A stretch of 64,000 nucleotides of DNA from a virus (IMGVR_UViG_3300032135_000003:1-64000); one strand, 5' to 3'. Counted from the stretch's first letter, positions 543 to 55,097 are shown. Numbers and translations are program-made. The notes: a model not told the origin generated them from the sequence alone.

Positions 543-2057
543 GTTAACTAGCCATTTGTCTTAAAATAATACTTTTGTTGGTAACGGTTTCTGATGCCAA
601 CTTATGTTTAAGTTCTCCAAGAGTATTATAGATCCTAAACCCTATAAAATCCCCTGTCTTTCTACATTTTCTAATTACCTTAAGTTTATCTCTTAATGCC
701 TCAGTGATACTATCATATACCTCAGCATAGTCTGGAGTATCCCTTAAGAAATCCCCCTTCTCCTCATAACAATTCACAATAACTTTCATTTTCTTTCTTC
801 ATTTATTACATGCAAATATACTTATTTTATTTTTAATACCCGCAATTTTAACTTTTTATTAAATGTTTAATTCTACTATACATATTCTCTTCATTGCTGC
901 AATACATAGTAAACTCCTTACCTTCCCCTTCTTTTATGAACAAAAAATACAATACGTCTGTTGGGTCTATCTTAACTTTAAAATCTCCTACATCATAATC
1001 ATAATCTTTGTGATCTGACTTTACCGCCCCTCTATTTATTAATATCTTTGTCATAGTCTTAATAAATATATTCTTATCCTTTGCTGATAACATAATTTTT
1101 AATTAATCCAAATGAATTTCTCTGAAACATTCTGTTTTGTAACTACCCTGGTATCTCCCACATCATACAACTGGTTAAAATAATTGTTAAACTCAGTTTC
1201 ATAATCCCCATCATACCCATAATCATCCCACTCATCTTCTGGGATTGTTCCATCTACAAGGTTTCTTAAGTGCTCAAAGTTATCCCTTTCAACCTCCAGT
1301 TCCTGCCACACCCTGTCTATATCTTCTTCTAACAGGTCTTTTTCAATATTAGCTAAGACTACATCTAATTGTAAAACGAGCCTATTACAAAGCTCTATTA
1401 TAAGCTCAGGACTACTCTCATCTTCAAACCTGTCCTTAATCTGTATCTGGTACTTCCAGTTATTACTTCTAGTTGTTCTCAAAATTGTATTGTTTTAAAG
1501 GTTATTATTTCTTATTGCTATTTCAAAGTCCACATTTTTCATTAACAACTGATATTAATTCATCAATTGAACTTACCTCATTATTGCAAATCTCATAACG
1601 GTTGCTATTATAAACACCTTCTCTATTGATGTTCAATAAATTCCCGTTTTTAAGAGTTACATTAAAATTTACTTTTCCTTTTTTAGAATCCCTAACCTCT
1701 CCAGTACCTTCTACAGATTGGGCAAAATAAGATTGAGATCCATTAAATACTTTTTCAAATTCTTTTTTGTTGGTTTCTTGAGTTTTCATAACTATAGCTC
1801 TTTATTTAAAAATTCTTCTATTGTTTCAAAAAATTCTAAATCTTCTCCCCAAAGTGTGTCTTTATACTGGTTTTCAAATTTAGTAGTTAACTCTTGTGCA
1901 AGCTCGTACATACCCCCTGTTCCTTGCTCCTCATATCTTCTTTTAGGTAAGCCTGTTAAACCTTCTTTAGAAAGTGCAGCACCTATAGCACAAGAAACCT
2001 CAAAATGTGTTTCTAAAAAACATTCTACTCCGTTAGGAAATCTATCTTGTTTCATCT

Positions 2058-2084
2058 GTTAAGAATTTATTAATATTCTGTTAA
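2058..2084 (-). promoter_or_regulatory. Triple 11-bp-period GTTAA/ATTAA/GTTAA repeat abutting the start of ORF 1792..2055
   Basis: GTTAA 2058, ATTAA 2069, GTTAA 2080. Confidence 0.5.
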
Positions 2085-2494: not shown

Positions 2495-2540
2495 CAAATA
2501 TAATACATATATAAACACCTAAGTCTTAAATACTTGTTAA
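2495..2540 (-). promoter_or_regulatory. Class I promoter (-7 element plus direct-repeat box, one variant unit)
   Basis: CAAATATA 2495; CTTAA 2525, GTTAA 2536. Confidence 0.6.
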
Positions 2541-2714
2541 AGTTTTGATAGGTAGAAATCCTCTTCTTTTCCATTCAAAGACTCTCCGTCCACCCACGTT
2601 AGCCCTATCCTATGGTTGTTTGATAGGCAAAATATATCATAGTCATTGTTATTCTTAACTACTGTATAGCCTTCACTACTCCAATGTACTAACTTCCCTT
2701 CGTCAACTGCTTTC

Positions 2715-3155
2715 TTAATTTCCTGTACTTTCATTGTGCCATTTTATAAATTCAATTCCTGCCTTGTAAGTAGCCTCTAATTTACTATTTCCATCTTTAT
2801 CAATAGATTCAAAACCTACATCTTCCATTGATTCTATCTCACAGTATTTGTATCCTATAATAGTGTAAAATGAGGTTTCTTCATACGTTGTTTCTTCAAT
2901 CTTCTCAATAACTGGCATGAGCCAATCCCATGAGGAATTATACTTTAGTTTCTCCTGATCTAATACATAGCACTTCTGATTATGTCCATGTGAAACTCCA
3001 TTATGACACCATTCGCAAAGCCCGTCTTTTTTATATTCTGAAACCCTAAAATATTTTAAATTAGGCTCTTTAAATATAGATACAGACTGTGTGTTTAGAT
3101 TTGTTAACCCCATAAATTCAGCTATTAATCTGTTATCTTCTACTATATTTTTCAT
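2715..3155 (-). CDS. Phage hypothetical protein, 'NRLIAEFMG...WDWLMPV' family; paralog of 10623..11012
   Basis: Shared motifs and 37 identical nt with the second copy. Confidence 0.75.
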   Translation of the reverse strand: MKNIVEDNRLIAEFMGLTNLNTQSVSIFKEPNLKYFRVSEYKKDGLCEWCHNGVSHGHNQKCYVLDQEKLKYNSSWDWLMPVIEKIEETTYEETSFYTIIGYKYCEIESMEDVGFESIDKDGNSKLEATYKAGIEFIKWHNESTGN

Positions 3156-5907
3156 TATTTCTTAGTATAAGTTGTCCTTTCACCTTCAAAATTCTCATAA
3201 CCTAAAGCCATTGCAATACATAGAAACCTACTTCTGCCGTTATATTGCTGCATTATATCAATAGCTTCATACAAAATATTAATTTTTTGGTCTTTTGTAA
3301 GCTTGCCAAATTCTTGACTAACATGCTCGCTTGTATAGTACTTTACCTTTGTTTCCATTGCTATATGTATTTTTTATCCAAATTTTTTGCAACTTCTAAA
3401 GCTTCCTCCCAGTATATTTTTTCTACTTCAATAGTAGTTACAACTTTTAAAATCTCTTCAATACATATCACTGCACTATCCTTAGCCCTAACCATGTGTA
3501 TTTTGTGGTCATAAGGTTGTTGTATGTCTGTTTCTGAATTGAATCTATAAAATATCTTTTTTGCTGATTCTTCTGGTGTCATTTTCATAATTTTAATTAT
3601 TAAAAGTGGAATAACCTTTATCCCACATTTCACCCTGTCTATAACTCCAAAACTCTATAGCTGAATGAGAGTATCCTTCTTCTGTAATAATTTTATTACC
3701 CCTCATACTCATCCACCCATTATCTGAGAACGCATCATGAGTTATTTTAACTCCTTTTTTCATTGCTGTAATAGCCTCTTGTCTTTCCATTTTCATAATT
3801 TTATTATTTCGTCTAAATGTTTCTGTATAAAATCTCTTTTTAACCCTGTTTGGTAAGATAAGCTGTCTATTGATCCTTTTATTAAAAGACTGTCTTCTTT
3901 ATCAACTCCTTTTTTAAGTGCATCTTGTAAGCCGTAACAACGGTTAAACGCATCTATTACTAAATTAGTGTAAAACTCCCCCATTATAAAATTAGTTTAG
4001 GATTGTTATACATACTCCTCATATTAATTTTGTCATGAATGTTTAATATCTGCCCTGAAAAGAATTTTTGCATAACTTTTGAAGTCCGATAATAATCGTA
4101 TTGCGTTTTATAATTGTGAAAAATCTTCATAATTTTAGTTTAAAAAAAGGTTAATATTGCGGGTGTAGCTATACAAACTACTTGATAAGCTCCCCATAAA
4201 TAAACATGGCTGTCTTGTAGTCCTTCAAATAACACTACTTTTGGTTCTGTGATTAAAATTAATAATAGTAAAAATCCTATAATTGGGGTGTAAATTACAT
4301 ACTTTAACATTGCGGGGGTTTTTAAATTTAAAATTTGTGTTATTCAGCTTCCTATAAGCTAATATCATAATAATTTTCTGGACTTTCTAAAATGTTATTT
4401 GCAATATCATCTAAATCTACATGATCAGCAACTGTATCAAAGCTTTCTAAGTTTGCATAACCGTTAAACTTAACATACTTATCATTAAAATTATATTCTC
4501 CGTATGAAGCTGCCCTAACTGCGCCTATCACATCGTTTTCAAAGTACATTTCAAAGAAATCCTCATCATTGTCATGAATAAGGTTATCTCCATCATTAAT
4601 AGACTGACAAAAATCATTGTGTACACCCATTAACTCACTGTCTGAAAGTCCTTCCAAATACTCTAATACTGCTTCAAAATTGTTCTTAATTTCTGTTTTC
4701 ATAACTTTAATTTACTATAAAAATCTTGGGTTAATATTGTTGTTACTGCATAATTTAAAATGTCAACATCCTTACTATTTTCTTTTAGTATTGTGCCAGT
4801 GAGTAATGTTTTACCTTCAAAAACTTTAACTGTTATATTGTAATTTGAATTAGTTTCAATTTTTCTAGCTGTTACCTTATAACCATCTATTTTAAATGTT
4901 TTCATTCATTTAGGTTTTCAAATTTAAAACTGTCAAGGTCTTTCCTTAACTCTTTAGTACTGTCATAGCCTAAAAAGGTTGTTAAGTGACTTGTATTAGT
5001 ATCGCTATAATTTAAGGCTTTTGTATCTAAGATAATCTGTTTACCCTCCTTAGATTCAACTATCTTTGCTACTATTGTATTGTAACTTTGAAAGACTGTC
5101 TCTCCTTGTGAACTGTGAACAAATTGATTTGCTATTGCTTTGCCGTTCTTTCCTATTAGTTGTGTTGTCATATCTTAAAATTAAAGTCTATATTTTGATT
5201 AATATAATTTAGTATTTCTTTATCTCCTTTTTCAAATATTTCTTGAGGTACGGCATAATCATAACTTTCGTCAAACTCATATATTTCACCTTCTGCAATA
5301 TCATTATTAAAATAAGAGGTAATTAAATCGTTCACCATATCTGTTGTTACTCCTATATGATTTTCAACTTCATCTATTGTTATAACCGTTATAGTTTTTA
5401 ACGGTAGTCCTTTATATAATTCCATATCTATTTATTTTTAATAAACCAATCGTTTGCAATCATACTCCATGTTATACCGTTCATTCCTTTTGTTTCATAT
5501 CTTACATAAGGTGCAAAACTGGCTAACATAAGTCTTACCTGTTCTGCTGAATAAGTTTTTTCACTTTCTATAAACTCATTTAAATCATCTATTACTCCGT
5601 TAAGCCCAGCTTCTGTTTCTTCGGGTATTTCTGCCCACTCTTTAACAGTAGCTAATCTGTTAGTAATATCAACTAAAATATCTGTTTCTTCTATTGTCAT
5701 TTTATTTCCTGTTTTTTAATGCTTCGTTATAATGCTTTATAGTACTGTCCTGTTCTTCTCTTAAATCCTCAATAGACTTTGATAAGTAGTGTTCTACTGA
5801 AATTTCAGTTACTCCTATCATTCTCCGCATAGCCTGAATGTTTGTTATTACAGTCATAGCTTCAATTTTTTCATCTATTGTCATAATATTTTTGTTTTTC
5901 TTCCTTA

Positions 5908-5952
5908 CAAAGATAACTAAACTTATCTAAGTTTCTGTTAATAAAAAGTTAA
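5908..5952 (-). promoter_or_regulatory. Class I promoter: TTAAC-N6-TTAAC-N21-TATCTTTG
   Basis: CAAAGATA 5908; GTTAA 5937, 5948. Confidence 0.75.
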
Positions 5953-6301
5953 ATTAATATTTCAATATCTAATTCTTCTGTAACTACCATAAGAGAGGAT
6001 AAGGCATTGTTTATTGCGTGGTTTACCTCATGTATATTATCACCATTTAAATCCATAGCCCTTTCTAACTAGTCATAAATACCTTGTAAAGCTTCTTGTA
6101 CCTTTTCTTCTCGAAATATTACTGTTTTCATATTACTTGAATTTAATTATTTTTAAAGGTCTGTATTCTATACCAAAACCATTATTGATAAATATCTCTT
6201 CTATTTGATACCTATTGTTTAAATACTTTACAAACTTGTCTTTTGCTTCTTCGGTCTTAAACTCTTTTGTCTTCCACATAATTTTTAGTTTTTGTTCTAT
6301 A

Positions 6302-6347
6302 CAAAGATAATCAATTTAAGTATAACATTATGTTAATACGGTGTTAA
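6302..6347 (-). promoter_or_regulatory. Class I promoter
   Basis: CAAAGATA 6302; GTTAA 6332, 6343. Confidence 0.75.
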
Positions 6348-6661
6348 AGTCTAAAATATCTATAGGTTTAATATTCCTTAAATTCATGTAGCTTTTTAAC
6401 CTTGTTTTTCTTCCTGCACAAATAATTTCTTTTGTATTAAGATAAATTAGAAAATAATTGTTAGGTTCTGTATCTTTTACAACGTGGTACTTTTTTGTTA
6501 AACTTTCTTCAGATCGTTTATACTCTTTAACCAACTCAACTAATTTTAACGCTTTACTTTCGATTTTTTCTATCATAATTTTAAATAAAATAAGGGTTAA
6601 AGTCTTATTATTTGCCCCCACACATTTGAAATTCTTTAACCCTTTAGCTAAATTAACTAAT

Positions 6662-6712
6662 CAAATATAAGGCTAATTGTCTTTCTAAACAACTAATTAA
6701 CAATTAATTAAC
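6662..6712 (-). promoter_or_regulatory. Class II promoter (inverted box, -33 TTG retained)
   Basis: CAAATATA 6662; CAA 6690; TTAAC 6697, 6708. Confidence 0.7.
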
Positions 6713-7136
6713 TCTATAAATAAAATATTCTCCTTCTTGGCTTTCTTCGCCATCATAACTGTTTATAAAATGCCCTCTACTATCTGCGGTAATAGCTTCC
6801 TCAATAAAACCATCTATTCCACATGTACTATTAACAATACTTTCTATTGCCTCATTGTTACTCTCACATCTTCCATTATCTTGTATAGCTTTAAATACCT
6901 CTTCATCTATCCCTGTCTCGCTTGATAGAAAACTAGGATTAAAAGCCCACAAAGTTTCTTTTATATCTTCTTCTGCCCTTGCATCTGCTTCTTTATCAGT
7001 TAAAACCATGTATTCTCCATTTTCTTCAGTTTCAAAAGTAAATTCATCATAACCTTCTGTAATAGTGGATTTTTTAACCCCTAAGAAATTCGCTAAAGCT
7101 GTAATTCGTTTCATCTTATTTGTTTTTTAGTATATG

Positions 7137-7182
7137 TAAAGATAATAAATATTAGTGTTACTTTTTGTTAAAGGGCTGTTAA
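7137..7182 (-). promoter_or_regulatory. Class I promoter (TATCTTTA variant)
   Basis: TAAAGATA 7137; GTTAA 7167, 7178. Confidence 0.7.
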
Positions 7183-7974
7183 AAATAAAATTATCTATTT
7201 CTAACTATTTAAGATTTTTACTAATTGGTTTGCTCTTTCCCTTGCTTCTCTTTCTTTTGCTTTCCTTGTATCGTGTTTAAGAGGTTTTAAAATAAATTCT
7301 ACCCCTGATACTGTTACTGTTCCATACCCTGCTAATAATGCTGTCTCAATTTCTTGCATAATAATTAGTTTTAAAGTTTAGCAATATAGTAATTTTATTA
7401 ATACCTTTCACCATCTTGTAAAAATTCATATTCATTCGCTTCAATAGTTTCAATTATTGCTTCATCACTTTGTAAATACTCAGCCTCATCTTTTAGTATT
7501 GATAAGCATTCTTCCCCTAAATCTTTTAAAAATTCATCTGAAAGACTTCCCATTTTATCATCATGAAACTTTAAATTTTCTGCATACCTTTCTTGTTCAT
7601 ATCCAAGTTCTGTTTCTTCAAGCAATTCTGTATATACTTCTATTGTATTTTGTAAAAAATTATTAGTTTTTATAAATTCTTTTGCCAGTTTATAAGTTTC
7701 TGTATCGTCCCCATGTTCTCTTAATATACTTTCGGCTGTGTCTTTAGCTAACCCATAAAACTCTATATTAATTCTGTTTCCTCTACCTGTATCAAATCCA
7801 GTTATTTTTAAATCTACATTTCTAGCATCTTCATAAATAAAATCCCACCAATCACTATCTAAATTAGTACCTCTAAATTCCTCAATAGCTTTTTCTTTAG
7901 CTTCATCTGATAACTCTTCAAACTTGTAAATCTTAACCTGCTCTGTTCTCATAATATTGGTTTTATTTCCTATA

Positions 7975-8019
7975 CAAATATACAATTTTTATACTATAAA
8001 TATGTTAAGGCTATGTTAA
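7975..8019 (-). promoter_or_regulatory. Class I promoter; implies ORF 7398 starts at 7952 (MRTEQ)
   Basis: CAAATATA 7975; GTTAA 8004, 8015. Confidence 0.7.
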
Positions 8020-9261
8020 ACTTATTAATTTCTTCTTGCTTTCTATCAAAGTTTTCATTTGCTATTCTGCTATGTCCTCTGTCAAAGGAACAAACAGGGT
8101 TTATACTTTGCTCTATAATCTCATTTAAAGACCGTCTATTGTCTTCATTATAACCTATTATTTTAACTGTTTTATAAGGCTTCATAATGTGCTTAAAAAG
8201 ATTAATACTATTAATGTTAAGAATAGATAAGGTAAATAAGCAAAGAAACTGTTTTTGTCATTCATTGTGTTTGTTGTTTTTAAGTAAATTTATATTTAAT
8301 GCGGCAAATAAAGTAAATATTGATAAGCCTAAAAATATTATAGCTGTATATGGATTCTCATATATATTTAAAAACCTTAACGCTAAGATTAAAAATATTA
8401 AAGCTACTATTAATAAAAATGCTTTCATAACTTACAAATTAATTCGCTATCGTCTATAAAATAGCGGTTTTTCTTTTGCCTATCACTTGTAAATAATAGC
8501 ACGTTATCTTCTATTTTATTTATAGAGAATATTTCCCGCTTTTTATAATCCCTATTTACATTTGAATAAATCTGAACAAATTTATCCCCTACTTTGAAGT
8601 TTTGCACCTCTGAAGCTTCACAAACACTTTTTAACTGATCTTGAGTTAGTATCATAATTATTCTTTTATTTCATAATCAATATAACTGGTTTCCTCTTGG
8701 ATATCACAATATAAACTGTATTCATTATAAGCTTCATTTTTTAGATAGAATTCTAATATACCTGCAAAAGCTCTGATAAATTTCTCATCGTCTTCTTTTA
8801 AGTACTCATTAAACCAAATTTCAGGCTCTGTACTAAAGAAACTTATAAAACCTGACCTACTACTATACTTTTCAATTAGGAACGCTGTAAACTCTTGTAA
8901 TTCTCTTTTACAATATTCTATTAAAGTTTTAAAAGTTTCATCCGATAAATTATAAGTACAGTTTATATAGTCATTTGTAAAATTATATTCTCTTGGACTA
9001 ATAACCTCCTCAAAAGTAATTGTAATATCTAAATAATCATGCTTTAAATAGTTTTCAATCTCATCACAACATCTTTTTGCTACTCTGTCATGATATTCTT
9101 TATAATCAAAATCTATATTTTCATAGGATATTTCGACTTCGCTCTCTTCGTTTAAATCTTCCAAAATTCTCTCTTCATCTTCAAACTCAAATTGGCTGCC
9201 GTAAAAACCTGGGAAAATTGGTAAATAACTTTTAATTTCCATAATTGTATATTTTATATTA

Positions 9262-9307
9262 CAAAGATAAGTATATTATTTAAATAAATATGTTAATGAA
9301 AGGTTAA
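9262..9307 (-). promoter_or_regulatory. Class I promoter
   Basis: CAAAGATA 9262; GTTAA 9292, 9303. Confidence 0.75.
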
Positions 9308-10207
9308 TTTAATAAATCTAAATAACTAAGTTGTTTTTCTTTATTCTTTTTTAGTTTGGTTTGGTAGTATTCGCAATCATCTACTAAAATTCTAGTTTTA
9401 ACCTCTTCTATGCCGTCAATATTCCACAACATATCATTATACCTTTTTAGAATTATTGCGTTTTCTTTATATAGCCAACCTCCATTATCCTCTTTTATCT
9501 CATCTAAGACGGCTTTAATAAGTTCTAAAGCTTTTATAAATCTCTCTTCTTCAGTCATAATTTAAATGTTTTCATAAAGTGTAAAAAACGCATTAGCTGT
9601 ATTTTGCCAGTACTCATCTAAGAATTTATCTTCCTTTGCTTCTGTGTTTATGTCAAAACCTGCTTTTATCCCTTGTTCCAATATATCAAAGTTCATATAA
9701 GGGATAGGTAAAACAGTTGGTAAACCTTGAAGCCAATCTTTAAATAACACTTTTTGATCTGAATTTCTATTATTATGGTGCAAATATTCAGCTGTAAAGA
9801 TAGTATAAATTTCGGCTATTTTATCAAAATCACTCATTTTATCTGTGTTAATATCATAATCTCCCAAAGTTATGCTATTTAAGACAATACCCTCATAAAA
9901 GGTTTTGTATTTATTATATTTTGGTGCAACTCTTTTTAACCCTGTTAAGTGTTTAGACAACGTTTCAGCATCTAAAAGTGGGTATTTAACCCCTCTTACT
10001 AAATCAGTTATTTCCATCTCTAAAGGTTCTATAATTTCAATTTTACCCAAATCTGCATCTGTTTGAGTATCGTAAAAGCTTATAACTTCTCTTCCATCTT
10101 CAAATATTGTAATAGCTTGCACCCATCTAAGATTGTAACCTGATTCAGCTAATTTCAATAAAAATTCTCTTACTTGATTTTTCATAATATTGGTTTTATT
10201 TCTTAGT

Positions 10208-10258
10208 CAAAGATAAGGCTTTTATACAATGCTTACAACTAATTAACATTAGTTTAAC
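10208..10258 (-). promoter_or_regulatory. Class II promoter
   Basis: CAAAGATA 10208; CAA 10236; TTAAC 10243, 10254. Confidence 0.7.
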
Positions 10259-10379
10259 ATTTTTCTATTTAGATAACTGTATTAAATCAAAATAGATATA
10301 TAGATTTGTTAAGAAATACGCTGCAATAATAATGACTATAATAAATTGTGCTTTTTTCATAATACTAATTTTATATATG

Positions 10380-10430
10380 TAAAGGTATGCAATTAAGACC
10401 GTATAAACAATTTTTTAACATTAGTTTAAC
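10380..10430 (-). promoter_or_regulatory. Class II promoter
   Basis: TAAAGGTA 10380; CAA 10408; TTAAC 10415, 10426. Confidence 0.65.
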
Positions 10431-10622
10431 TTTCAAATATTTTGTCAATATATTTACTAATCCAGTTATAAAATGTAAATATATAAACAAATATACTAAA
10501 TACATAAAACGCAGTAAAAAATATGCCTAAACTCTCTTCAGGTACTACCATGATGAGGTAAAAGAAAGGAAGAGTCATGGCATAAGTAACAATTATTTTA
10601 ATAGTATATAGAATAATGTTTT

Positions 10623-11012
10623 TCATAATTTATTTTGATTATACCATTTTATAAAATCTACTGTTGCTCTATAAATAGCCTTAAGCGTATTTGTGTCTGT
10701 ATAGTAAGCTGTAGGGTCATCTTCATTTTCATAAAATCTAACCCTTAAAGTAGCCCCTCCATTAAAAGATGTTTCTATTGTATATAATTTTTGATTATCT
10801 TCATTCCTAAATGAATTTATTTTTTCCACCACAGGCATAAGCCAATCCCATGAATAATTATATTTTGCATAATTAATAATGCCCCTCATAACTTTTTCAG
10901 GGTTATCTTCTCTTATTGAAATCCATGGAAAATCTGAATAAGTGTAAACGTCTGGCGATTCCATTTTAGGCTTTAACCCCATAAATTCAGCTATTAATCT
11001 GTTATCTTCCAT
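10623..11012 (-). CDS. Phage hypothetical protein; paralog of 2715..3155
   Basis: MEDNRLIAEFMGL...YNYSWDWLMPVVEKI. Confidence 0.75.
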   Translation of the reverse strand: MEDNRLIAEFMGLKPKMESPDVYTYSDFPWISIREDNPEKVMRGIINYAKYNYSWDWLMPVVEKINSFRNEDNQKLYTIETSFNGGATLRVRFYENEDDPTAYYTDTNTLKAIYRATVDFIKWYNQNKL

Positions 11013-11275
11013 AATTTATATTTTTTAATAAATGCTTTGTAAATTGGAATTATTAAATCTTTTACGTTTAGAAAAACCCACCATAATAAAATATAAAATA
11101 CCAATGCTATTTTCATTTTATTAGTTTATGTAGTATTTAGTAGTAACTATAAAATCGGAAGGTAGTAAATTATCTTCACAATATTGAAAAGCATCATTAT
11201 AATCTATAAATAGATTTTTAAAAACATAGTAATGATTAAATTCTGATTTTTTCATAGCTCTTTATATTTATACGG

Positions 11276-11321
11276 TAAATATACGGTTTATATTCCTTAC
11301 TTTGTGTTAATAGTCTGTTAA
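11276..11321 (-). promoter_or_regulatory. Class I promoter
   Basis: TAAATATA 11276; GTTAA 11306, 11317. Confidence 0.65.
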
Positions 11322-11575
11322 TTCTTTTTCTAATCCTTTTAAAAAATATATCCCTATCATACTGGGTTTATATGTCCTTTCATCACTTGGAAAGCCTTTA
11401 AATTTAACATCAACTAGTGGTGTCCAATTACTTGACCAAACGTGATTATCATACATTTTACTTAATTTGTTATATATCTTAATACAATCTTCAGCATCTT
11501 TTTTATAGTCTGTTTTTAGCTGCTTCTTTAATCTTATTATTAGTTTACCCATTTGTTTAAATTTTGTTTCTTTTA

Positions 11576-11621
11576 CAAATATACAACTTATTTATAGTTA
11601 ATTCTGTTAATGAAAAGTTAA
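11576..11621 (-). promoter_or_regulatory. Class I promoter
   Basis: CAAATATA 11576; GTTAA 11606, 11617. Confidence 0.75.
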
Positions 11622-12253
11622 ATTATTTATGTTCCGTTATTTCGCGCCAAATAAACTATTAAGATTCTTTCCAAACATTAGTACAACGGTTTGACTTATA
11701 TACATTAATACCTGCTATATGATATTCTCTAACCATTTCCCTAACATATATATTAAACTCTCTTAAAGTCTGTTTAGGCTCTCTCTCAAACTGATCTATT
11801 GTTTCAACTCCAGTATTATATCGGGTATTTAAATAAACTATCTGCATAATTTAGTCTTTATAAGTTACTGTTAATGGTTCTGAAAAATAAGTATTGCCTT
11901 GAGTTTGTACATCATAGTAAAATACATTTTTATTACTAACTGTTAACATAGGGTAATGTTCGCCAAATAAGATATTATTTATTTGCCTAATATCTTTCCT
12001 TTGAATTTTCTTTAATTGCTGCGGTGTTAATACTTTTGTTTTCATTGCTATATATTTTAGTTGCTTTGTTTTTCACGTTCATAAAATATTCTTATAAACA
12101 TCCCTTCACTGTCTTCCCATTTAATAGGGTCTAGTATTCTTATTATTTTCCAGCCTTTAGAAGCCATCATGTTAATTTCTCTTATCATATTTCCGTCGAA
12201 CATTTCGTGGTCTAGCATTCTGTATTCTAAATTTTTCATCTTATTTCTTTTTG

Positions 12254-12299
12254 TAAAGATAATACTTTTAATTCAATAAAATTGTTAAGACTATGTTAA
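12254..12299 (-). promoter_or_regulatory. Class I promoter
   Basis: TAAAGATA 12254; GTTAA 12284, 12295. Confidence 0.7.
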
Positions 12300-13600
12300 A
12301 GATTATTTTTGTTTGGTTTCTTGCCGCATAAAAGTATTAGACAATACAACCGTTAAAATATATGTTACTTATTAGAATACAAACTACTTACTTTAAATAA
12401 ACCATTAACAAACTTACCTACAGTAATAATACTATCTTCAATTTTAAATACTCTATAAGCTTCTTTAATTTCTTTAAGAGTACCAATACCATTATTAACC
12501 AATCTAGGCTCTACATAATAGTTAGTTTGCTTTAATCTCTTAACAGTATATATATTAAAGGGACTATCTTTAAGGTCTTTATATGTTGCTATACGTTGCG
12601 TAATGTAAGATATAAATAAATTCATTGGGTTTATTTTTAGGTTTGTCTTAACTATATATTGTTAAAGTTGAAAACTATTTTTAGACAAGCCTAAATTAAA
12701 GCTAAAATAGGGGTTTTTGGGTGTCCAATCCCTTGTTAACCCTTGCTACCACTGACTTTGTCTAAAATTCTGCATCAGAAATAACCTCAACAATTTTCGC
12801 CTTAATTTGCTCACTTGTATAGAGTTTTTCGCCTTGTAAGTAGCTATTTATTACGCTCTCAAGCCCCAATACAACCGCTTTATACTTGTTTGGGTATCTG
12901 TCTTGTCTTATACTATCCCTATTTCCTGCTAATAACCTGCTTAAGTTGCTATAATTGATAATATCTTTACTGTCTATTTCCATAATTGTGTAAATTCCCC
13001 ATGGGATTAATACCGCTTTTTATACAAAAATATGGAAATATAGCCAATTAACCTAATTATTTAGTCAAAAGTTTCATTATAATCATTTTTTAACCTTCCC
13101 AAACTTCGCCCTGTTCTACTTCTCTATTGTATTTACTTAGTTCTATTAATGAACCGTCATACTTATTATAATATCCTATTCCTTTATACATAACTTTATT
13201 TATTTAGCACTAATTTAACCGCTTTTTTACCTGCTGTCTCAATATGATTGTCTTTGCAGCCATCAGGATATAATTTAAAATCAAAATCCGATTGTATTAA
13301 TTTATTCCAGTTTGTTAAGTCATATATTTTATGCGATTTTTATTACTTACAGTTGGTTACTAACTAAAACAGAAAAATATCCCTTTGTCCGTTTCTACTC
13401 TTTCGTCTGCTAACTCTTCAATGCCATCATCATTTACATAATACCATTCCTCATTAGTATAATGTAGTATTTGCCAGTACTCCCAACTCTTAAAAGTGTT
13501 TTGGTCATTAGTGTTTTCTAACTCTTCATCATTAAATATACCTGAAGACTGTAGGTCTAAAATTCGCTCTTGTATTGTCATATAGTTTTGTTTTATAGGG

Positions 13601-13646
13601 CAAAGATATGTTATTTAACCTTTGCCCTGTGTTAATATTCTGTTAA
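13601..13646 (-). promoter_or_regulatory. Class I promoter with overlapping inverted repeat
   Basis: CAAAGATA 13601; GTTAA 13631, 13642; AGGGCAAAG/CTTTGCCCT. Confidence 0.75.
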
Positions 13647-13920
13647 TATATGATATCAAAACATTCATTTTCAGCATCTTTGTACAAGGCTGCAACCTGA
13701 CTAAAATACTCTTTATAGGTTATTAACCCCATGTTATAATTTTCAAATAAGGTAGCCCTTACATCTTCAACCTCTTCAAATAATTCTGTATTAAATAGAT
13801 GCTGCTTATCTTTAATTGCATGCGCCTGTTCCTCTTTCAACTCGTTAATATTATTTAAAATACTGTTTAACCTTGTTACTTTACTTGCTATTGCCATGAC
13901 CGTTTATGTTTTAAGTTAAG

Positions 13921-13965
13921 CAAAGATACACAAAATACCTTTGCTTTGTGTTAATGAAATGTTAA
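13921..13965 (-). promoter_or_regulatory. Class I promoter with overlapping inverted repeat
   Basis: CAAAGATA 13921; GTTAA 13950, 13961; AAGCAAAG/CTTTGCTT. Confidence 0.75.
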
Positions 13966-13975
13966 ATATTAAATA

Positions 13976-14452
13976 TTAATTTAATTGTAAATTTGACTTG
14001 CTATCAAATGATTTGCAACCCCATGTACTTTTTACTTGCTCTAAAGTCTTTTTAGATCTAAATTTTTGTGTATAATCTACAGGGCTAAAATACCATGCTT
14101 TTTTCTTGCCTGCAAACCTAGCATGGTTATATTTGTCAATCACTATACTTTTTATTGCTTCCCTTTGGTTATACGTCGCGCCCTTATCTATATCTTCAAG
14201 CCAAATAAAGATGCCAACGAATGATATTTTAATGCCTTGTAAACCGTCAAATAGACTGACTAAGTTATAAAAAGTCTCATAATTAAAGTCTTTGTCGCTA
14301 TCATAACTAACTGAAGGCTTAAACGCTTTAAATTCGGCTTGCATCTTTATAAACTCACTTGCTTTACCACCTTTATCAGGGTGCAACTTATGACAAAGTG
14401 TGCGAAATAATGTTTTGGCTTGGTCTAATGTTTTACAGTCTTGAAAGTACAT
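13976..14452 (-). CDS. J-domain (DnaJ-like) protein
   Basis: AKTLFRTLCHKLHPDKGG-KASEFIKMQAEF contains the HPD motif in an N-terminal J-domain. Confidence 0.8.
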   Translation of the reverse strand: MYFQDCKTLDQAKTLFRTLCHKLHPDKGGKASEFIKMQAEFKAFKPSVSYDSDKDFNYETFYNLVSLFDGLQGIKISFVGIFIWLEDIDKGATYNQREAIKSIVIDKYNHARFAGKKKAWYFSPVDYTQKFRSKKTLEQVKSTWGCKSFDSKSNLQLN

Positions 14453-14770
14453 ATCTTAATTGTTAAGTGTTCATTCTATTGGTGTGTTCAGTGACAATGA
14501 ACAGTTATTTAATTGAACGGTTTATATTTCTTTAATAAATTTGGGTTGCACTCCAGTTAATATAACGCCTAAATTAGTAGTAATATCATAATAAAAATAA
14601 TCCCCTTGCATAGTTTTACCTGTTTTTAATTCAACCGTTACAATGGTTTTATTAGTCTCTAGGTTTTTTAATACTCCATAATGTTTACGTACAAATGGAG
14701 GTAGATTATTATAATCAACTGTACTGGTATTCACTATTGTAGCTTGCATAATCTTAATTATTAAGTTAGT

Positions 14771-14815
14771 CAAAAATAACACTTTTAACCTACTAAAGTG
14801 TTAAAGGAATGTTAA
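14771..14815 (-). promoter_or_regulatory. Class I promoter
   Basis: CAAAAATA 14771; GTTAA 14800, 14811. Confidence 0.75.
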
Positions 14816-15030
14816 AGTTTAATATTCCTTATAAAGTATTTTCTGTTCTAATATATTTATGTTTCTTGCAATTGCCTCATAGGTTAAAGGTCTTTTAAGA
14901 TAATCTATATTACATGCCCTATCTTGTAACCTGTTCAATTCTGTTAACCTTTGTGCCTTTGTCATTTGGTTAACTTGTGATTGTGTTAAAATAATACATT
15001 CCATATCTTGATATTTAAATTAATAATATT

Positions 15031-15076
15031 CAAAGATACAACTAACAATCGGTTAATTTTGTTAAAGAAATGTTAA
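15031..15076 (-). promoter_or_regulatory. Class I promoter (first of the early cluster)
   Basis: CAAAGATA 15031; GTTAA 15061, 15072. Confidence 0.75.
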
Positions 15077-29711: not shown

Positions 29712-30365
29712 TTATTTCAAATAATCAATGATCTTATTAATATCTTCATTTCTGTGATTTTCAGTAAGTTCTATCCAGCCTACCAACCCTGAGTCTCTTA
29801 ATTTCTGAATAGTATAATAACAAGAGTCTTTGTTAATACTTTTATGAATCTGTTCTTTACTAATAGTAAAAATCATTTTACTGTCTTTTCCAAGTCTAGT
29901 TAAAATCTCTACAAATTCCCTATAAGTTAAATCCTCCCCTTCATCAATGACCATAACAGCACTACAGATAGTTCTGCCTTTGATCTTCCCATTGTATTGA
30001 ACTTTTATGTCCCCCTCCTTCAACATCTTATCTGTTGTAACTTTAGACTGACAAGCATTCATATTATCTAACATTGGCTGAGTCTCAAGCATTAGCTTCT
30101 CTTCTAAAGTGCCCGGAAGTGCTCCGAGAGCTTTGTCTGGAATAAAAGGTCTTGATAATACAATCTCATTAAATTCCTTTTTTCTAAAAGCTTTAATAGC
30201 AGCAGCAACAGCTCCTAAAGTTTTCCCTGTGCCCCAAATTCCCTCTACAAAGACTACATCATACTCATAGAGTAAAGTAGATATTTCTTTTTGCTCAGGG
30301 TGTAAAGTAATAGATAGGCGAGGTTCATTTTTTAACAGTCTTTTATCTTTATTCTCTTTAGCCAT
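29712..30365 (-). CDS. phoH: PhoH-family ATPase
   Basis: GIWGTGKT, LSRP, LGALPGTLEEK, KGRT, IDEGED, LTRLGKDSK. Confidence 0.9.
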   Translation of the reverse strand: MAKENKDKRLLKNEPRLSITLHPEQKEISTLLYEYDVVFVEGIWGTGKTLGAVAAAIKAFRKKEFNEIVLSRPFIPDKALGALPGTLEEKLMLETQPMLDNMNACQSKVTTDKMLKEGDIKVQYNGKIKGRTICSAVMVIDEGEDLTYREFVEILTRLGKDSKMIFTISKEQIHKSINKDSCYYTIQKLRDSGLVGWIELTENHRNEDINKIIDYLK

Positions 30366-30436
30366 ATTTAACTTTTTGTTTTTATAAAGTTACAATTTTA
30401 TTAACACTTAACCAAACATATTTAGACTTTTTTATT

Positions 30437-31456
30437 TTACACTTTTATAAAATCCATTGTAATGTTAAGTTCTCCTCTAAAATACCTTTTTAGTTTACTA
30501 TATTCTATCCCATAAATGTCTGAAATTTGTTTAACCTCCTCATAATAAATACCGTCTTTTACAGATAAATAATAGCTAAAATCACCCTGTCTTCTTTGTA
30601 TGCGTCTTATTTGATACTTAGCGTATAAATCAACACCACTCTCATAATCTTCTAAAAACATATAATCTGTGTTATTAGGATTATCCCCTTTTAATTTAGC
30701 ATATAAAGCTTTATAATTTAAATTATGCTCCTTACATATATCTCTTATTATTGAAGGCTCTTTTGTTTTTATATTAATACACTTTTTTGAATTACTCTGA
30801 GCTATTTTTTCTACAATATATTCCTCTCTCTTTTTACCTCTGTGGGGGTGTTTATCACTCAACATAACATCCCTGATTTTTTGTTTTTGATCTTCACTAA
30901 GTTTTCTACCATAGCTAGGATGAGCTTCACCTGTTCTGCCATACATAGGATGATCTTTGCCTTTGACTTTTCTGAGACCCCTCATAAATTCTGCTTGACC
31001 TTCTTTGTTTTTAAAAGTCTCAGACATATTTTTTCTCCAAGAATCTACATCTTCTTTTGATCTACCCTCTCTCCAATCCTTTCCATACATCGGGTTATTC
31101 TTACCTGACATTTGTTTTGATAACTTCTCTCTCCTCTCTTCTGATATAACTCTCGGTAATACGTCTGTCTCGGTTAAAACACAATTCAAGCCGTTCTTTC
31201 CTAAAACCTCGTAATAATCTTGCCAGTACCTTTCACGAATATTCATTTCTTCAAACTCACACTTCTCTATAATCTCAAAGGTGTGCTCATCCCATCCATA
31301 TTTTTCTACAGAGTGTTTAACTCTAGGTTGATATTTATAGCCCCTTCCATTTCTGTAAGAGTTTCTTCTACTTGATAAATTTCTACTTTGTCCAATATAA
31401 ATTTTTCCTGTGGGGCTGGTTATTTTGTAAATACCACAGACCTTCTTGTATGCCAT
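30437..31456 (-). CDS. GIY-YIG homing endonuclease with NUMOD3-like repeats
   Basis: GIYKITSPTGKIYIGQS; NPMYGK/HPMYGR/HPSYGR repeats; free-standing with its own promoter. Confidence 0.9.
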   Translation of the reverse strand: MAYKKVCGIYKITSPTGKIYIGQSRNLSSRRNSYRNGRGYKYQPRVKHSVEKYGWDEHTFEIIEKCEFEEMNIRERYWQDYYEVLGKNGLNCVLTETDVLPRVISEERREKLSKQMSGKNNPMYGKDWREGRSKEDVDSWRKNMSETFKNKEGQAEFMRGLRKVKGKDHPMYGRTGEAHPSYGRKLSEDQKQKIRDVMLSDKHPHRGKKREEYIVEKIAQSNSKKCINIKTKEPSIIRDICKEHNLNYKALYAKLKGDNPNNTDYMFLEDYESGVDLYAKYQIRRIQRRQGDFSYYLSVKDGIYYEEVKQISDIYGIEYSKLKRYFRGELNITMDFIKV

Positions 31457-31466
31457 TTTACTATAA

Positions 31467-31566
31467 ATGCAGAAACCCTTTCTCTGAAGTTACCGCCAAG
31501 TAAAACTAAAGAAAAAGGGTTCTATATAAATATTTCCTGAATCTTGGCGGATTTACTACAAAGATA
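31467..31566 (-). promoter_or_regulatory. Promoter and structured 5' leader of the GIY-YIG gene
   Basis: CAAAGATA 31559; 5' CCGCCAAG complementary to CTTGGCGG in the loop of a long hairpin. Confidence 0.55.
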
Positions 31567-31614
31567 GTAATAAAGCCTAAGTGTTAAAAATTTGTTAACT
31601 CTGCCTTGATAAAT

Positions 31615-41540: not shown

Positions 41541-41599
41541 TATCTATGCAAAATAATCCTAATTAACAAACTTTTAACACACTTTAACAAGACTTTAAC
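41541..41599 (+). promoter_or_regulatory. Late-block promoter followed by four TTAAC repeats
   Basis: TATCTATG 41541; TTAAC 41563, 41574, 41584, 41595. Confidence 0.6.
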
Positions 41600-41602
41600 A
41601 TT

Positions 41603-41968
41603 ATGGCGAACGAAATATATTTTAATCCGTTGAAGTATAAGAATGAAATGCAGTTGTTAGAATACATTATTAGGATATACTCTGTAGTAATGTTAAATGA
41701 CAATTTGGAAAATCACGAAGAAAAGGTACTGATGTTTTATTTCAAGTATGGATATTCCCCAGATACCAAAGAGAAGATTAAAAAAGCTTTAGATATCTCA
41801 GCCCACTATTTAAATACTATTAATTACCACTTAGATAAGAAAGGATATTTGAGAAAAGATGACAGAAACAAACAGAAGAAACATTTGTCTGATGGGCTAT
41901 TAAAACTGAAAGAAGCTTTTGTAGACAAAGGTATCAAAACGTATGTTATTAAAGCGGTTAGAGATTGA
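41603..41968 (+). CDS. Winged-helix-like DNA-binding protein
   Basis: IKKALDISAHYLNTINYHLDKKGYLRKDDRNKQKKHL resembles an HTH plus wing. Confidence 0.55.
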   Translation: MANEIYFNPLKYKNEMQLLEYIIRIYSVVMLNDNLENHEEKVLMFYFKYGYSPDTKEKIKKALDISAHYLNTINYHLDKKGYLRKDDRNKQKKHLSDGLLKLKEAFVDKGIKTYVIKAVRD

Positions 41969-46468: not shown

Positions 46469-46492
46469 TTAACATTCTTTTAACTATTTTTG
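46469..46492 (+). promoter_or_regulatory. Portal promoter with repeat box abutting the -7 element
   Basis: TTAAC 46469, 46480; TATTTTTG 46485. Confidence 0.65.
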
Positions 46493-54099: not shown

Positions 54100-54127
54100 T
54101 ATTTTTGCATTGTTAAAGTAATGTTAA
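54100..54127 (+). promoter_or_regulatory. Late promoter with repeat box over the start site
   Basis: TATTTTTG 54100; GTTAA 54112, 54123. Confidence 0.65.
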
Positions 54128-54140
54128 TAAAACCAATATA

Positions 54141-55097
54141 ATGATTACATCAATTAAACCCGCAGAAAATTTTAAAGTTGTAGTAAACGGCTTTGAGATA
54201 GAATCTGGAAAAATATATCAAGTTACCCCTAAGCCAGATGAGGATGCACCCGATGGTTTTAGAAAAGAAAGAACAACCAAAGTACTTTCACCAAGAATTA
54301 CTGAAAGTATAGGTTGTGTTAAAAATGCCCAAACAAATACTTGGGATACTGGGTTCTATGAGTACTCTCCTTGCTATAAGCACTTGCCTATGGATCAACG
54401 AGAAGAAATAGTAAAGAACATAGTAAAAAATATTAAAGAGCCTATTGAAAACCTCTACGGTGGAACTAATAAGCTAGACCAAAACAACGATGCGTTTTGG
54501 GACGAATACTCTTTTGAACTTAGAAACGGTGAGATTTTCAACACTGCCGAACCTAAGGAACTATTAAACCTTTATATGGCAATTCTACACAGAAGTTTAG
54601 CTCCTGTAAAAGATGCAAGCCACACTTCATATAGAGAAGCAAAGTATTGTGTTATTAACAAAGACGAAGTTATTAATAGAAAACTTTCCAAAGACCTTAA
54701 TTACAACAAAGCTATTGGGAACTTCTGGACACTATATGAAAATGATAAACCAAAACTTATTGATGTACTAGGTTACTTAGGATTGCATGCTACAGAAAGT
54801 ACAAATGAAGCTACTCTAAACAATATTGTAAGTAATTACCTAAAGAATAAACAATCTGGAGACCAAAATGTTGAAATCTTCTTAGACACTTTCAAAAAAG
54901 CAAAAACAGAAGAAGGAAAGGCAGAAATTAAACTCTACGGAAACTTAAAAGATTTGGCTAAAAAAGGAGTCATTATTAAAGAAGGAACAGATTATATGTT
55001 AGCTGGTAAACCTATTGGTTCCACTTTCAAAATCGCTGCTTCGGTTGTAGCAAAAGACCAAGAACTTCAAGAGGCAGTAATCACTGCACTAGACTAA
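54141..55097 (+). CDS. Conserved protein of the capsid block, function unknown
   Basis: 318-aa ORF in the structural module. Confidence 0.6.
   Translation: MITSIKPAENFKVVVNGFEIESGKIYQVTPKPDEDAPDGFRKERTTKVLSPRITESIGCVKNAQTNTWDTGFYEYSPCYKHLPMDQREEIVKNIVKNIKEPIENLYGGTNKLDQNNDAFWDEYSFELRNGEIFNTAEPKELLNLYMAILHRSLAPVKDASHTSYREAKYCVINKDEVINRKLSKDLNYNKAIGNFWTLYENDKPKLIDVLGYLGLHATESTNEATLNNIVSNYLKNKQSGDQNVEIFLDTFKKAKTEEGKAEIKLYGNLKDLAKKGVIIKEGTDYMLAGKPIGSTFKIAASVVAKDQELQEAVITALD

What the first reader, a model, noticed from the sequence alone, without database searches (positions are those of the whole stretch)
2495..15076. TTAAC-N6-TTAAC boxes at two fixed geometries in 16 early promoters
Seen in sequence: 13 promoters read (minus strand) TTAAC-N6-TTAAC-N21/22-TAnnTTT(G/A), with -7 elements at 2495 (one TTAAG unit), 5908, 6302, 7137, 7975, 9262, 11276, 11576, 12254, 13601, 13921, 14771 and 15031; the box replaces the -33 TTTG. 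Three others (6662, 10208, 10380) have the box inverted, exactly 27 nt from the -7 element (half a helical turn further), and keep a -33 TTG at a 20-nt spacer. Established: 11-bp-period direct repeats are typical OmpR/PhoB-family sites (Pho, PhoP, ArcA boxes), and PhoP promoters show orientation-dependent positions. Inference: the early genes depend on a head-to-tail dimeric activator. It could be a hijacked host response regulator (phoH is present, so phosphate status is one candidate) or a phage protein.
Basis: partly seen in the sequence, partly recalled or inferred. Interest (0 to 1): 0.8.

Follow-up and report, generated by a model that had tools for sequence, protein, structure and literature searches.

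The report
Host phosphate-starvation boxes on phage promoters
Sixteen promoters in a block of small unknown genes of this 131-kb marine Bacteroidota phage carry the binding boxes that host bacteria place in front of their phosphate-starvation genes, so the phage most likely uses the host's phosphate sensor (PhoB) to switch this block on.

Summary
Twelve exact and one near-exact TTAAC-N6-TTAAC-N21/22-TAnnTTT(G/A) promoters, plus three inverted boxes exactly 27 nt from the -7 element, lie on the minus strand between 2.5 and 15.1 kb. Simulations expect 0.002 such composite promoters in this region.

New here: the half-site is TTAACA with an 11-bp period. In bacterial genomes this tandem repeat sits in front of pstS, pstC, a Na/Pi-PhoU transporter, phosphate porin O/P, PitA, TonB receptors and PhoB/PhoR-like two-component genes, so it is a Pho box.

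In 301 Bacteroidia genomes the exact phage architecture occurs about 145 times, against 8 for the reversed-pattern control. It is phase-specific: 46 matches at N21/22 against 1 at N26/27 in the same 101 genomes. The inverted box also peaks at 26-28 nt in hosts. Both phage geometries are therefore native host geometries.

The phage shows no OmpR/PhoB-type, receiver, sigma-r4 or MotA domain. Cultured Cellulophaga phages phi17:2 and phi4:1 share two of the block's genes and carry 12-14 boxes, and many IMG/VR contigs have such arrays.

Best reading (0.6): host PhoB~P activates this block. This is known in kind from cyanophages but was not found described for Bacteroidota phages. The "early" label is untested.

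The parts
2495..2540 (-). Direct-box promoter. The box is TTAAC-N6-TTAAG at 2525-2540, the spacer is 22 nt and the -7 element is TATATTTG. It drives a 116-aa ORF (2120-2470).
5908..5952 (-). Direct-box promoter with a 21-nt spacer and -7 TATCTTTG, driving ORF 5702-5884.
6302..6347 (-). Direct-box promoter with a 22-nt spacer, driving ORF 6133-6279.
6662..6712 (-). Inverted-box promoter: GTTAA-N6-GTTAA, 27 nt, then TATATTTG. A TTG lies 20 nt upstream of the -7 element.
7137..7182 (-). Direct-box promoter with a 22-nt spacer and -7 TATCTTTA, driving ORF 6704-7114. A third GTAACA unit lies 11 bp downstream.
7975..8019 (-). Direct-box promoter with a 21-nt spacer, driving ORF 7398-7952 (phrog_5162, function unknown).
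9262..9307 (-). Direct-box promoter with a 22-nt spacer, driving ORF 8658-9242 (phrog_37559). This ORF is 48% identical to gp145 of Cellulophaga phage phi17:2.
10208..10258 (-). Inverted-box promoter: 27 nt to TATCTTTG, with a TTG at a 20-nt spacer. It drives ORF 9562-10185.
10380..10430 (-). Inverted-box promoter: 27 nt to TACCTTTA, with a TTG at a 20-nt spacer. It drives a roughly 31-codon hydrophobic ORF starting at 10359.
11276..11321 (-). Direct-box promoter with a 22-nt spacer and -7 TATATTTA.
11576..11621 (-). Direct-box promoter with a 22-nt spacer. A third TTAAC unit lies 10 bp downstream.
12254..12299 (-). Direct-box promoter with a 22-nt spacer and -7 TATCTTTA.
13601..13646 (-). Direct-box promoter with a 22-nt spacer.
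13921..13965 (-). Direct-box promoter with a 21-nt spacer.
14771..14815 (-). Direct-box promoter with a 21-nt spacer. Its operon includes ORF 13976-14452 (phrog_15863), which is 48% identical to the C-terminal half of a DnaJ-domain protein of phi17:2 and phi4:1.
15031..15076 (-). Direct-box promoter with a 22-nt spacer. A third TTAAC unit lies 10 bp downstream.
31559..31598 (-). Box with an off-register 16-nt spacer to TATCTTTG, upstream of a GIY-YIG homing-endonuclease gene (30437-31456) and phoH (29712-30365).
41563..41599 (+). Four tandem TTAAC units ending 3 nt before the ATG of the first plus-strand gene. This is not an activating position and may be an operator.
46469..46492 (+). Box abutting TATTTTTG with a 0-nt spacer, upstream of the 932-aa gene at 46526. 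It occupies the promoter spacer.
54100..54127 (.). TATTTTTG on the plus strand, followed 4 nt later by an inverted box (54112-54127) that overlaps the expected start site of the gene at 54141.

Best explanation
The boxes are Pho boxes, the binding sites of the host's phosphate-starvation response regulator (a PhoB/PhoP-type OmpR-family winged-helix protein).

In 13 promoters, two head-to-tail TTAACA units at about -35 to -51 replace the -33 element of a Bacteroidota sigma-A promoter, while the -7 element TAnnTTTG is kept. A phosphorylated PhoB dimer bound there would recruit host RNA polymerase, as PhoB does at -35-less pho promoters in E. coli. In three promoters the same dimer site is inverted and sits just upstream of an intact -33 TTG.

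The result would be a 13-kb block of about 45 small genes of unknown function that host RNA polymerase transcribes strongly only when PhoB is active. That could be when the host is phosphate-limited, or possibly when infection itself drains intracellular phosphate.

Shown here: the motif, its geometry, its identity with host Pho-regulon promoter architecture, and its recurrence in other Bacteroidota phages. Inferred: PhoB binding, activation, and the physiological trigger.
For: 1. Motif and geometry in the phage are far above chance and are kept while the flanks have diverged.

2. A scan of one genome per prokaryote species for three tandem TTAACA units gave at least 120 hits. All ten downstream genes that I annotated are phosphate-uptake or outer-membrane uptake genes: PstS x3, PstC x2, Na/Pi cotransporter-PhoU, porin O/P, a second porin and TonB receptors x2.

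3. The exact phage architecture occurs in 109 of 301 Bacteroidia genomes, about 145 matches against 8 for the control. Downstream genes include porin O/P x2, PitA (PHO4), two OmpR-type regulators whose best NCBIfam match is PhoB, and T9SS-secreted proteins. This matches the published F. johnsoniae Pho regulon, which includes OprP, TonB transporters, lipoproteins and the phoBR operon (PMC8115612).

4. The geometry is phase-specific. In the same 101 genomes there are 46 matches at N21/22 and 1 at N26/27. In the triple-box loci, -7 elements fall at 10, 21, 32 or 33 nt in 10 of 14 cases.

5. The inverted box in hosts peaks at 26-28 nt (32 of 84 matches; mode 27) and again at 37-38 nt, against about 1.9 per spacer in the control. 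Downstream genes include three PhoR/PnpS-like kinases and a PhoB-like regulator.

6. The phage record shows no Trans_reg_C, Response_reg, Sigma70_r4_2 or MotA_activ domain. No protein family is shared by all box-rich phage contigs.

7. Cellulophaga phages phi17:2 and phi4:1 share two block genes with this phage at 48% identity. They carry 12-14 boxes against 0 in the control, and 10 of the 12 in phi17:2 are in promoter geometry.

8. Precedents exist. Cyanophage genes with host Pho boxes are bound by PhoB (PMC10976474). PHO boxes are generally 6 conserved plus 5 variable nt on one helix face (PMC2275107).
Against: There is no binding, start-site or expression data, and the host is unknown.

The regulators and kinases next to host boxes best match PhoB/PhoR models but score below NCBI's curated cut-offs. 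Another OmpR-family system is therefore not excluded, especially for the inverted class.

In 12 Flavobacteriaceae phoB-like loci the upstream repeats read TGTTAY rather than strict GTTAA. Some Flavobacteriaceae lack pstS.

None of the phage genes behind the boxes has a recognisable phosphate function.

Tying this many promoters to phosphate starvation looks costly for a lytic phage, particularly in other contigs where dense promoter clusters all carry boxes.

The record is only 86% complete, and a phage factor with an unrecognised fold could exist.

The downstream genes that I annotated are a sample of about 40, not a full regulon reconstruction.
Confidence: 0.6

Rival explanations
1. A phage-encoded or virion-delivered activator recognises the TTAACA repeats. 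It would either mimic PhoB or work like T4 MotA/AsiA sigma appropriation, making these middle promoters that are independent of host phosphate status.
For: Box arrays decorate dense promoter clusters in many phage contigs, as expected for a phage-wide temporal class. The box replaces the -33 element, as the MotA box replaces -35 in T4 (from memory). The record is 86% complete and most of its genes have unknown function.
Against: There is no Trans_reg_C, Response_reg, Sigma70_r4_2 or MotA_activ domain at E<=1. No protein family is shared by all box-rich phage loci. The same sequence, in the same two geometries, is used by uninfected host genomes at phosphate genes. A phage factor would therefore have to copy PhoB's specificity exactly.
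Confidence: 0.15
2. A different host OmpR/PhoB-family response regulator binds some or all of the boxes, especially the inverted TGTTAA-N5-TGTTAA class. This could be an ArcA-, RprY- or envelope-stress-like system with a similar half-site, so the signal would not be phosphate.
For: The two-component genes next to host boxes score below the PhoB/PhoR equivalog cut-offs. Genes behind inverted host boxes include YceI, DsbD and DUF1573, which are not classic Pho genes. OmpR-family half-sites resemble one another; the E. coli ArcA repeat TGTTAA is an example (from memory).
Against: For all three regulators the best of more than 90 family matches is PhoB. For the kinases the top matches are PnpS and PhoR. 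Direct boxes precede pstS, pstC, Na/Pi-PhoU, porin O/P and PitA. One pstS-like gene has an inverted triple box upstream.
Confidence: 0.13
3. No activator is involved. TTAACA would be a -35-like hexamer (5 of 6 matches to TTGACA) or an UP-like element read directly by host RNA polymerase, and the promoters would be constitutive.
For: The sigma-70 consensus scan picks several TTAACA units as -35-like hexamers. The -7 element is the dominant Bacteroidota promoter determinant (from memory).
Against: The proximal TTAACA lies 2-3 bp further upstream than the -33 TTG of this phage's canonical promoters and of phi14:2 middle promoters. A strictly phased second unit 11 bp upstream, arrays of 3-4 units, an inverted class and the host link to phosphate genes are not explained by direct recognition.
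Confidence: 0.05

Closest known systems
Cyanophage genes under host PhoBR control through Pho boxes (P-SSM2 pstS, Zeng & Chisholm 2012, from memory; S-PM2d, Rihtman et al. 2024, PMC10976474)
   Same: A lytic marine phage carries the host's Pho box upstream of its own genes, so that the host's phosphate sensor raises their transcription. The cyanobacterial unit PyTTAAPyPy(T/A) even shares the TTAA core and the 11-bp period.
   Different: The host phylum and promoter type differ (Bacteroidota -33/-7). The boxes here match perfectly and sit at two fixed distances, whereas the S-PM2d boxes are degenerate and their authors call prediction unreliable. Here 16 promoters govern one contiguous block of about 45 ORFan genes, rather than scattered auxiliary metabolic genes. 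No pstS or phoA is present in the block. PhoB binding has not been tested here.
Bacterial PHO boxes and PhoB/PhoP-dependent promoters (E. coli PhoB; B. subtilis PhoP core site TT(A/T/C)ACA with 11-bp period, from memory; Streptomyces PhoP repeat units, PMC2275107)
   Same: The sites are direct repeats of 6 conserved plus 5 variable nt on one helix face. They come in arrays of 2-4 units and replace or abut the -35 region. Sites that overlap the core promoter act negatively.
   Different: The sites are carried by a phage. The downstream core element is the Bacteroidota -7 motif. I found no published Pho box for Bacteroidota in the library searched, so the host consensus is itself inferred here.
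T4 middle promoters (MotA box plus AsiA sigma appropriation)
   Same: An upstream box replaces the -35 element of an otherwise host-type promoter and defines a class of phage promoters.
   Different: This phage has no MotA-like domain. The box is a tandem 11-bp repeat identical to a host regulon's site rather than a single 9-bp box at -30. The factor is most likely a host protein.
Middle promoters of crAss-like Cellulophaga phage phi14:2 (Drobysheva et al., bioRxiv 10.1101/2020.03.07.982082)
   Same: Both are host-RNA-polymerase promoters with a TAnnTTTG -7 element in a large marine Flavobacteriia phage.
   Different: The phi14:2 promoters consist of an A-tract, a TTGAC -33 element and a -7 element. 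That genome has only three TTAAC-N6-TTAAC matches, all outside the eight upstream regions inspected. Box promoters are therefore not a general crAss-like trait.

Membership tests
Pho box / PhoB-dependent promoter | Tandem direct repeats with an 11-bp period (about 6 conserved plus 5 variable nt), at least 2 units | tested here: met
   The site is TTAACA-N5-TTAACA in 13 promoters, and some have a third unit. The general definition is taken from PMC2275107.
Pho box / PhoB-dependent promoter | The same sequence precedes phosphate-acquisition genes in genomes of the host lineage | tested here: met
   The genes found are PstS, PstC, Na/Pi-PhoU, porin O/P, PitA, TonB receptors and PhoB/PhoR-like genes. 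This is a sample of about 40 genes. The phage's actual host is unknown.
Pho box / PhoB-dependent promoter | Fixed, helically phased position next to or replacing the -35/-33 element | tested here: met
   The phage spacers are 21/22 nt (direct) and 27 nt (inverted). Hosts show 10/21/32 nt for direct boxes and 26-28 and 37-38 nt for inverted boxes. An out-of-phase direct spacer gives 1 match against 46.
Pho box / PhoB-dependent promoter | Bound by phosphorylated PhoB and induced by phosphate limitation | not testable with these tools
   This needs EMSA or footprinting and expression data under phosphate-replete and phosphate-depleted conditions.
T4-type MotA/AsiA middle promoter | A phage-encoded MotA-like activator is present | tested here: not met
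   PF09114 (MotA_activ) gives no match at E<=1 in the six-frame search of the record. AsiA was not searched, and the record is 86% complete.
Phage-encoded OmpR/PhoB-type or ECF-sigma-dependent promoter | The phage encodes a winged-helix Trans_reg_C, receiver or sigma region 4 domain | tested here: not met
   PF00486, PF00072 and PF08281 give no match at E<=1.
Early promoter class of the phage | Transcribed first after infection | not testable with these tools
   No expression data exist. In phi14:2, early genes are transcribed by the virion RNA polymerase and show no common motif, so 'early' should not be assumed here.

The most novel reading that the evidence does not exclude
One host regulator, PhoB, serves the phage as a nutrient and infection-state switch. 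PhoB~P would turn on a dedicated block of about 45 accessory genes through 16 activating boxes, and at the same time hold back the structural-gene arm through boxes placed over late promoters or 5' leaders (41563-41599, 46469, 54112). The trigger could be external phosphate limitation or the intracellular phosphate drain caused by phage DNA synthesis. Such Pho-box programmes would be common in Bacteroidota phages, including the cultured Cellulophaga phages phi17:2 and phi4:1.
Probability: 0.3. Interest if true: 0.8.

Novelty: new member of a known kind. Interest (0 to 1): 0.62.

Why it matters
Phosphate often limits marine bacteria. How phages adjust infection to host nutrient status is known mechanistically only for a few cyanophage genes.

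If this reading is right, a Bacteroidota phage has wired a whole block of about 45 unknown genes to the host's phosphate sensor, using perfect, precisely placed sites. The same device is widespread in phages of this phylum.

Three practical gains follow. First, it gives a functional handle on dozens of ORFan genes, as candidate low-phosphate infection functions. Second, it gives a working Pho-box model for Bacteroidota, which I did not find published. Third, it offers a cultured test system, Cellulophaga baltica with phi17:2 or phi4:1, in which the idea can be checked directly.

Tried and rejected
1. Megablast of 2-16 kb against the phage collection found no match.

2. I looked for relatives of two block proteins and of the 932-aa protein at 46526 in IMG/VR with the search for related loci and found none. 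Box conservation in close relatives could therefore not be examined. tblastn against cultured phages did find phi17:2 and phi4:1.

3. I asked whether the phi14:2 'tripartite' middle promoter is the same thing. It is not: that promoter is an A-tract plus TTGAC plus a -7 element, with no boxes.

4. Pfam and PHROGs annotation of 20 phage proteins in and around the block gave unknown functions or no hits. The exceptions were a GIY-YIG homing endonuclease, a protein matching the PHROG family annotated 'NAD synthetase', and phoH. No regulator candidate emerged.

5. The 121-aa gene directly behind the four-unit array at 41563 was considered as a self-regulated DNA-binding protein. It matches only phrog_34285 of unknown function, so the idea was dropped.

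6. The generic sigma-70 and terminator scan of 1-16.5 kb was uninformative.

7. A single-hit scan of IMG/VR is not evidence by itself, because hundreds of chance matches are expected at this pattern strength. Only multi-box loci were used.

8. Loci from the two unpublished genomes (G185/L265 and G099) were left out of all tallies.

Full report
**What is there.** The window is the first 64 kb of a 130,947-bp IMG/VR phage record with 33% G+C, estimated 86% complete. TTAAC-N6-TTAAC occurs 21 times in the window against 0.73 expected.

The composite TTAAC-N6-TTAAC-N21/22-TAnnTTT occurs 12 times, all on the minus strand between 5.9 and 15.1 kb. The reversed-pattern control gives 0, and Markov simulations give a mean of 0.002 for the region. 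A thirteenth promoter at 2495-2540 has TTAAG as its proximal unit.

Three more promoters carry the box inverted. It lies exactly 27 nt from the -7 element and just upstream of a TTG at a 20-nt spacer.

The half-site is really TTAACA. Several promoters have a third, weaker unit one helical turn closer to the -7 element. Outside the motif positions the promoters are only 37-38% identical, against 30% expected from composition. The motif is therefore maintained by selection rather than by recent duplication. Ordinary TTTG-N19/20-TAnnTTTG promoters occur elsewhere in the genome.

**What the box is.** I scanned one genome per prokaryote species for three tandem TTAACA units and got at least 120 hits across many phyla, with many Bacteroidota among them.

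The genes just downstream of ten of these were PstS (three), PstC (two), a Na/Pi cotransporter with PhoU domains, a phosphate-selective porin O/P, another porin and two TonB-dependent receptors. This is the signature of a Pho regulon.

The repeat has the general form of PHO boxes: 6 conserved plus 5 variable nt, bound by a response-regulator dimer on one face of the helix (PMC2275107). It resembles the cyanobacterial unit PyTTAAPyPy(T/A) and, from memory, the B. subtilis PhoP core TT(A/T/C)ACA.

**Geometry in hosts.** The exact phage architecture is present in 109 of 301 genomes sampled from the class Bacteroidia, with roughly 145 matches against 8 for the control.

Genes behind 20 of these matches included:
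- porin O/P (two);
- the PHO4/PitA phosphate transporter;
- two OmpR-type regulators whose best NCBIfam match is PhoB;
- five T9SS-secreted proteins;
- MoxR and DUF5916 proteins.

This agrees with the experimentally defined F. johnsoniae Pho regulon (PMC8115612).

The spacing is phase-specific. The first 101 genomes hold 46 matches at N21/22 but only 1 at N26/27. In the triple-box loci the -7 element lies 10, 21, 32 or 33 nt from the last unit in 10 of 14 cases.

The inverted box shows its own sharp preference. Of 84 matches over spacers of 17-40 nt, 32 fall at 26-28 nt (mode 27) and 15 at 37-38 nt, against about 1.9 per spacer in the control (my tally, with unpublished G099 left out). Genes behind ten of the 27-nt cases include three histidine kinases that best match PnpS/PhoR and one PhoB-like regulator.

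**Who binds.** Six-frame profile searches of the phage record find no Trans_reg_C, receiver, sigma region 4 or MotA activation domain. No protein family is common to the box-rich phage contigs.

The simplest reading is that host PhoB~P binds the boxes. In the direct class it would substitute for the missing -33 contact, as E. coli PhoB does at -35-less pho promoters (established knowledge). In the inverted class it would sit just upstream of an intact -33 element.

This step is inferred, not shown.

**Other phages.** Many IMG/VR contigs carry arrays of 2-4 TTAACA units in front of TAnnTTTG promoters. One 12-kb locus has up to 13 boxes, and one locus has six boxed promoters within 1.7 kb.

Two proteins of the boxed block have 48%-identical homologues in the cultured Cellulophaga baltica phages phi17:2 and phi4:1. 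These phages carry 12-14 boxes against 0 in the control. In phi17:2, ten of the twelve boxes are in promoter geometry: eight inverted at 27-29 nt (mostly 28), one inverted at 37 nt and one direct at 21 nt.

By contrast, the crAss-like phage phi14:2 has no box promoters. Its middle promoters consist of an A-tract, TTGAC and a -7 element, and its early genes are read by a virion RNA polymerase with no common motif.

The temporal label 'early' for the block in this window is therefore unproven.

**What it probably does.** The boxed promoters head short operons of small genes. These have no Pfam function and only unknown-function PHROG matches.

I propose that the block is a phosphate-status-dependent accessory programme. 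It would be weakly expressed, or read through, when PhoB is inactive and strongly expressed when PhoB~P accumulates.

Boxes also lie in non-activating positions on the structural-gene arm: four units in the leader at 41563-41599, a box filling the promoter spacer at 46469, and an inverted box over the start site at 54112. PHO boxes that overlap core promoters are known to repress. A combined activate-and-repress switch is therefore possible but untested.

**Weak points.**
- The host is unknown.
- The two-component genes next to host boxes fall below NCBI's PhoB/PhoR cut-offs.
- Flavobacteriaceae phoB-like loci show TGTTAY rather than strict GTTAA repeats.
- Several genes behind inverted host boxes are not classic Pho genes.
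- It is not obvious why a lytic phage would tie so many promoters to starvation.

I put 0.6 on host PhoB, 0.15 on a phage factor with the same specificity, 0.13 on another host OmpR-family regulator and 0.05 on direct polymerase recognition.

**Novelty.** Host-PhoB control of phage genes is established for cyanophages. I found no description of a Bacteroidota Pho box, or of its use by Bacteroidota phages, in the library searched.

This is a new member of a known kind. It is notable for its scale (16 promoters, one block), its precise dual geometry, and the availability of a cultured system to test it.

Noticed in passing
window 41563-41599, 46469-46484, 54112-54127: The same TTAAC units sit in non-activating positions on the plus-strand (structural) arm. 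There are four tandem units ending 3 nt before the ATG at 41603, a box abutting the -7 element of the gene at 46526, and an inverted box over the expected start site of the gene at 54141. If PhoB binds them, they would repress.
   Followed up: partly
window 2055-2084 (minus strand): Three 11-bp-spaced units (TTAAC, TTAAT, TTAAC) run right up to the ATG of ORF 1792-2055. This resembles the leader array at 41563. No -7 element lies downstream of them.
   Followed up: no
window 29712-31598: phoH (PF02562, E=1e-37) lies directly behind a GIY-YIG homing-endonuclease gene (30437-31456). The promoter of that gene has a box at an off-register 16-nt spacer. The endonuclease may have been inserted between phoH and its former promoter.
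   Followed up: partly
window 10260-10359 (minus strand): The inverted-box promoter at 10380 drives a roughly 31-codon, very hydrophobic ORF (MKKAQFIIVIIIAAYFL...), possibly a small membrane peptide. The + strand here also has a box-to--7 distance of 42 nt (10243 to 10301), which could be an antisense promoter.
   Followed up: no
window 13976-14782: ORF 13976-14452 matches only the C-terminal half (149-306 of 312) of phrog_15863 and of a 'DnaJ domain containing protein' of phi17:2 and phi4:1. The ORF just upstream (14522-14782) may be the N-terminal half, so the gene may be split.
   Followed up: no
L133 and L181 (Mariniflexile and Algibacter genomes): In two Flavobacteriaceae genomes that lack a PstS match, a triple TTAACA box is embedded between the arms of a perfect inverted repeat (GCTATTTTAAC ... 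GTTAAAATAGC). This is a conserved structure of unknown meaning.
   Followed up: no
L036 (IMGVR_UViG_3300021165_000262... contig, 12 kb): A promoter cassette with two box pairs (four units) recurs about every 2.1 kb (2369, 4619, 6695, 8911). This suggests a tandem array of paralogous genes, each with its own Pho-box promoter.
   Followed up: no
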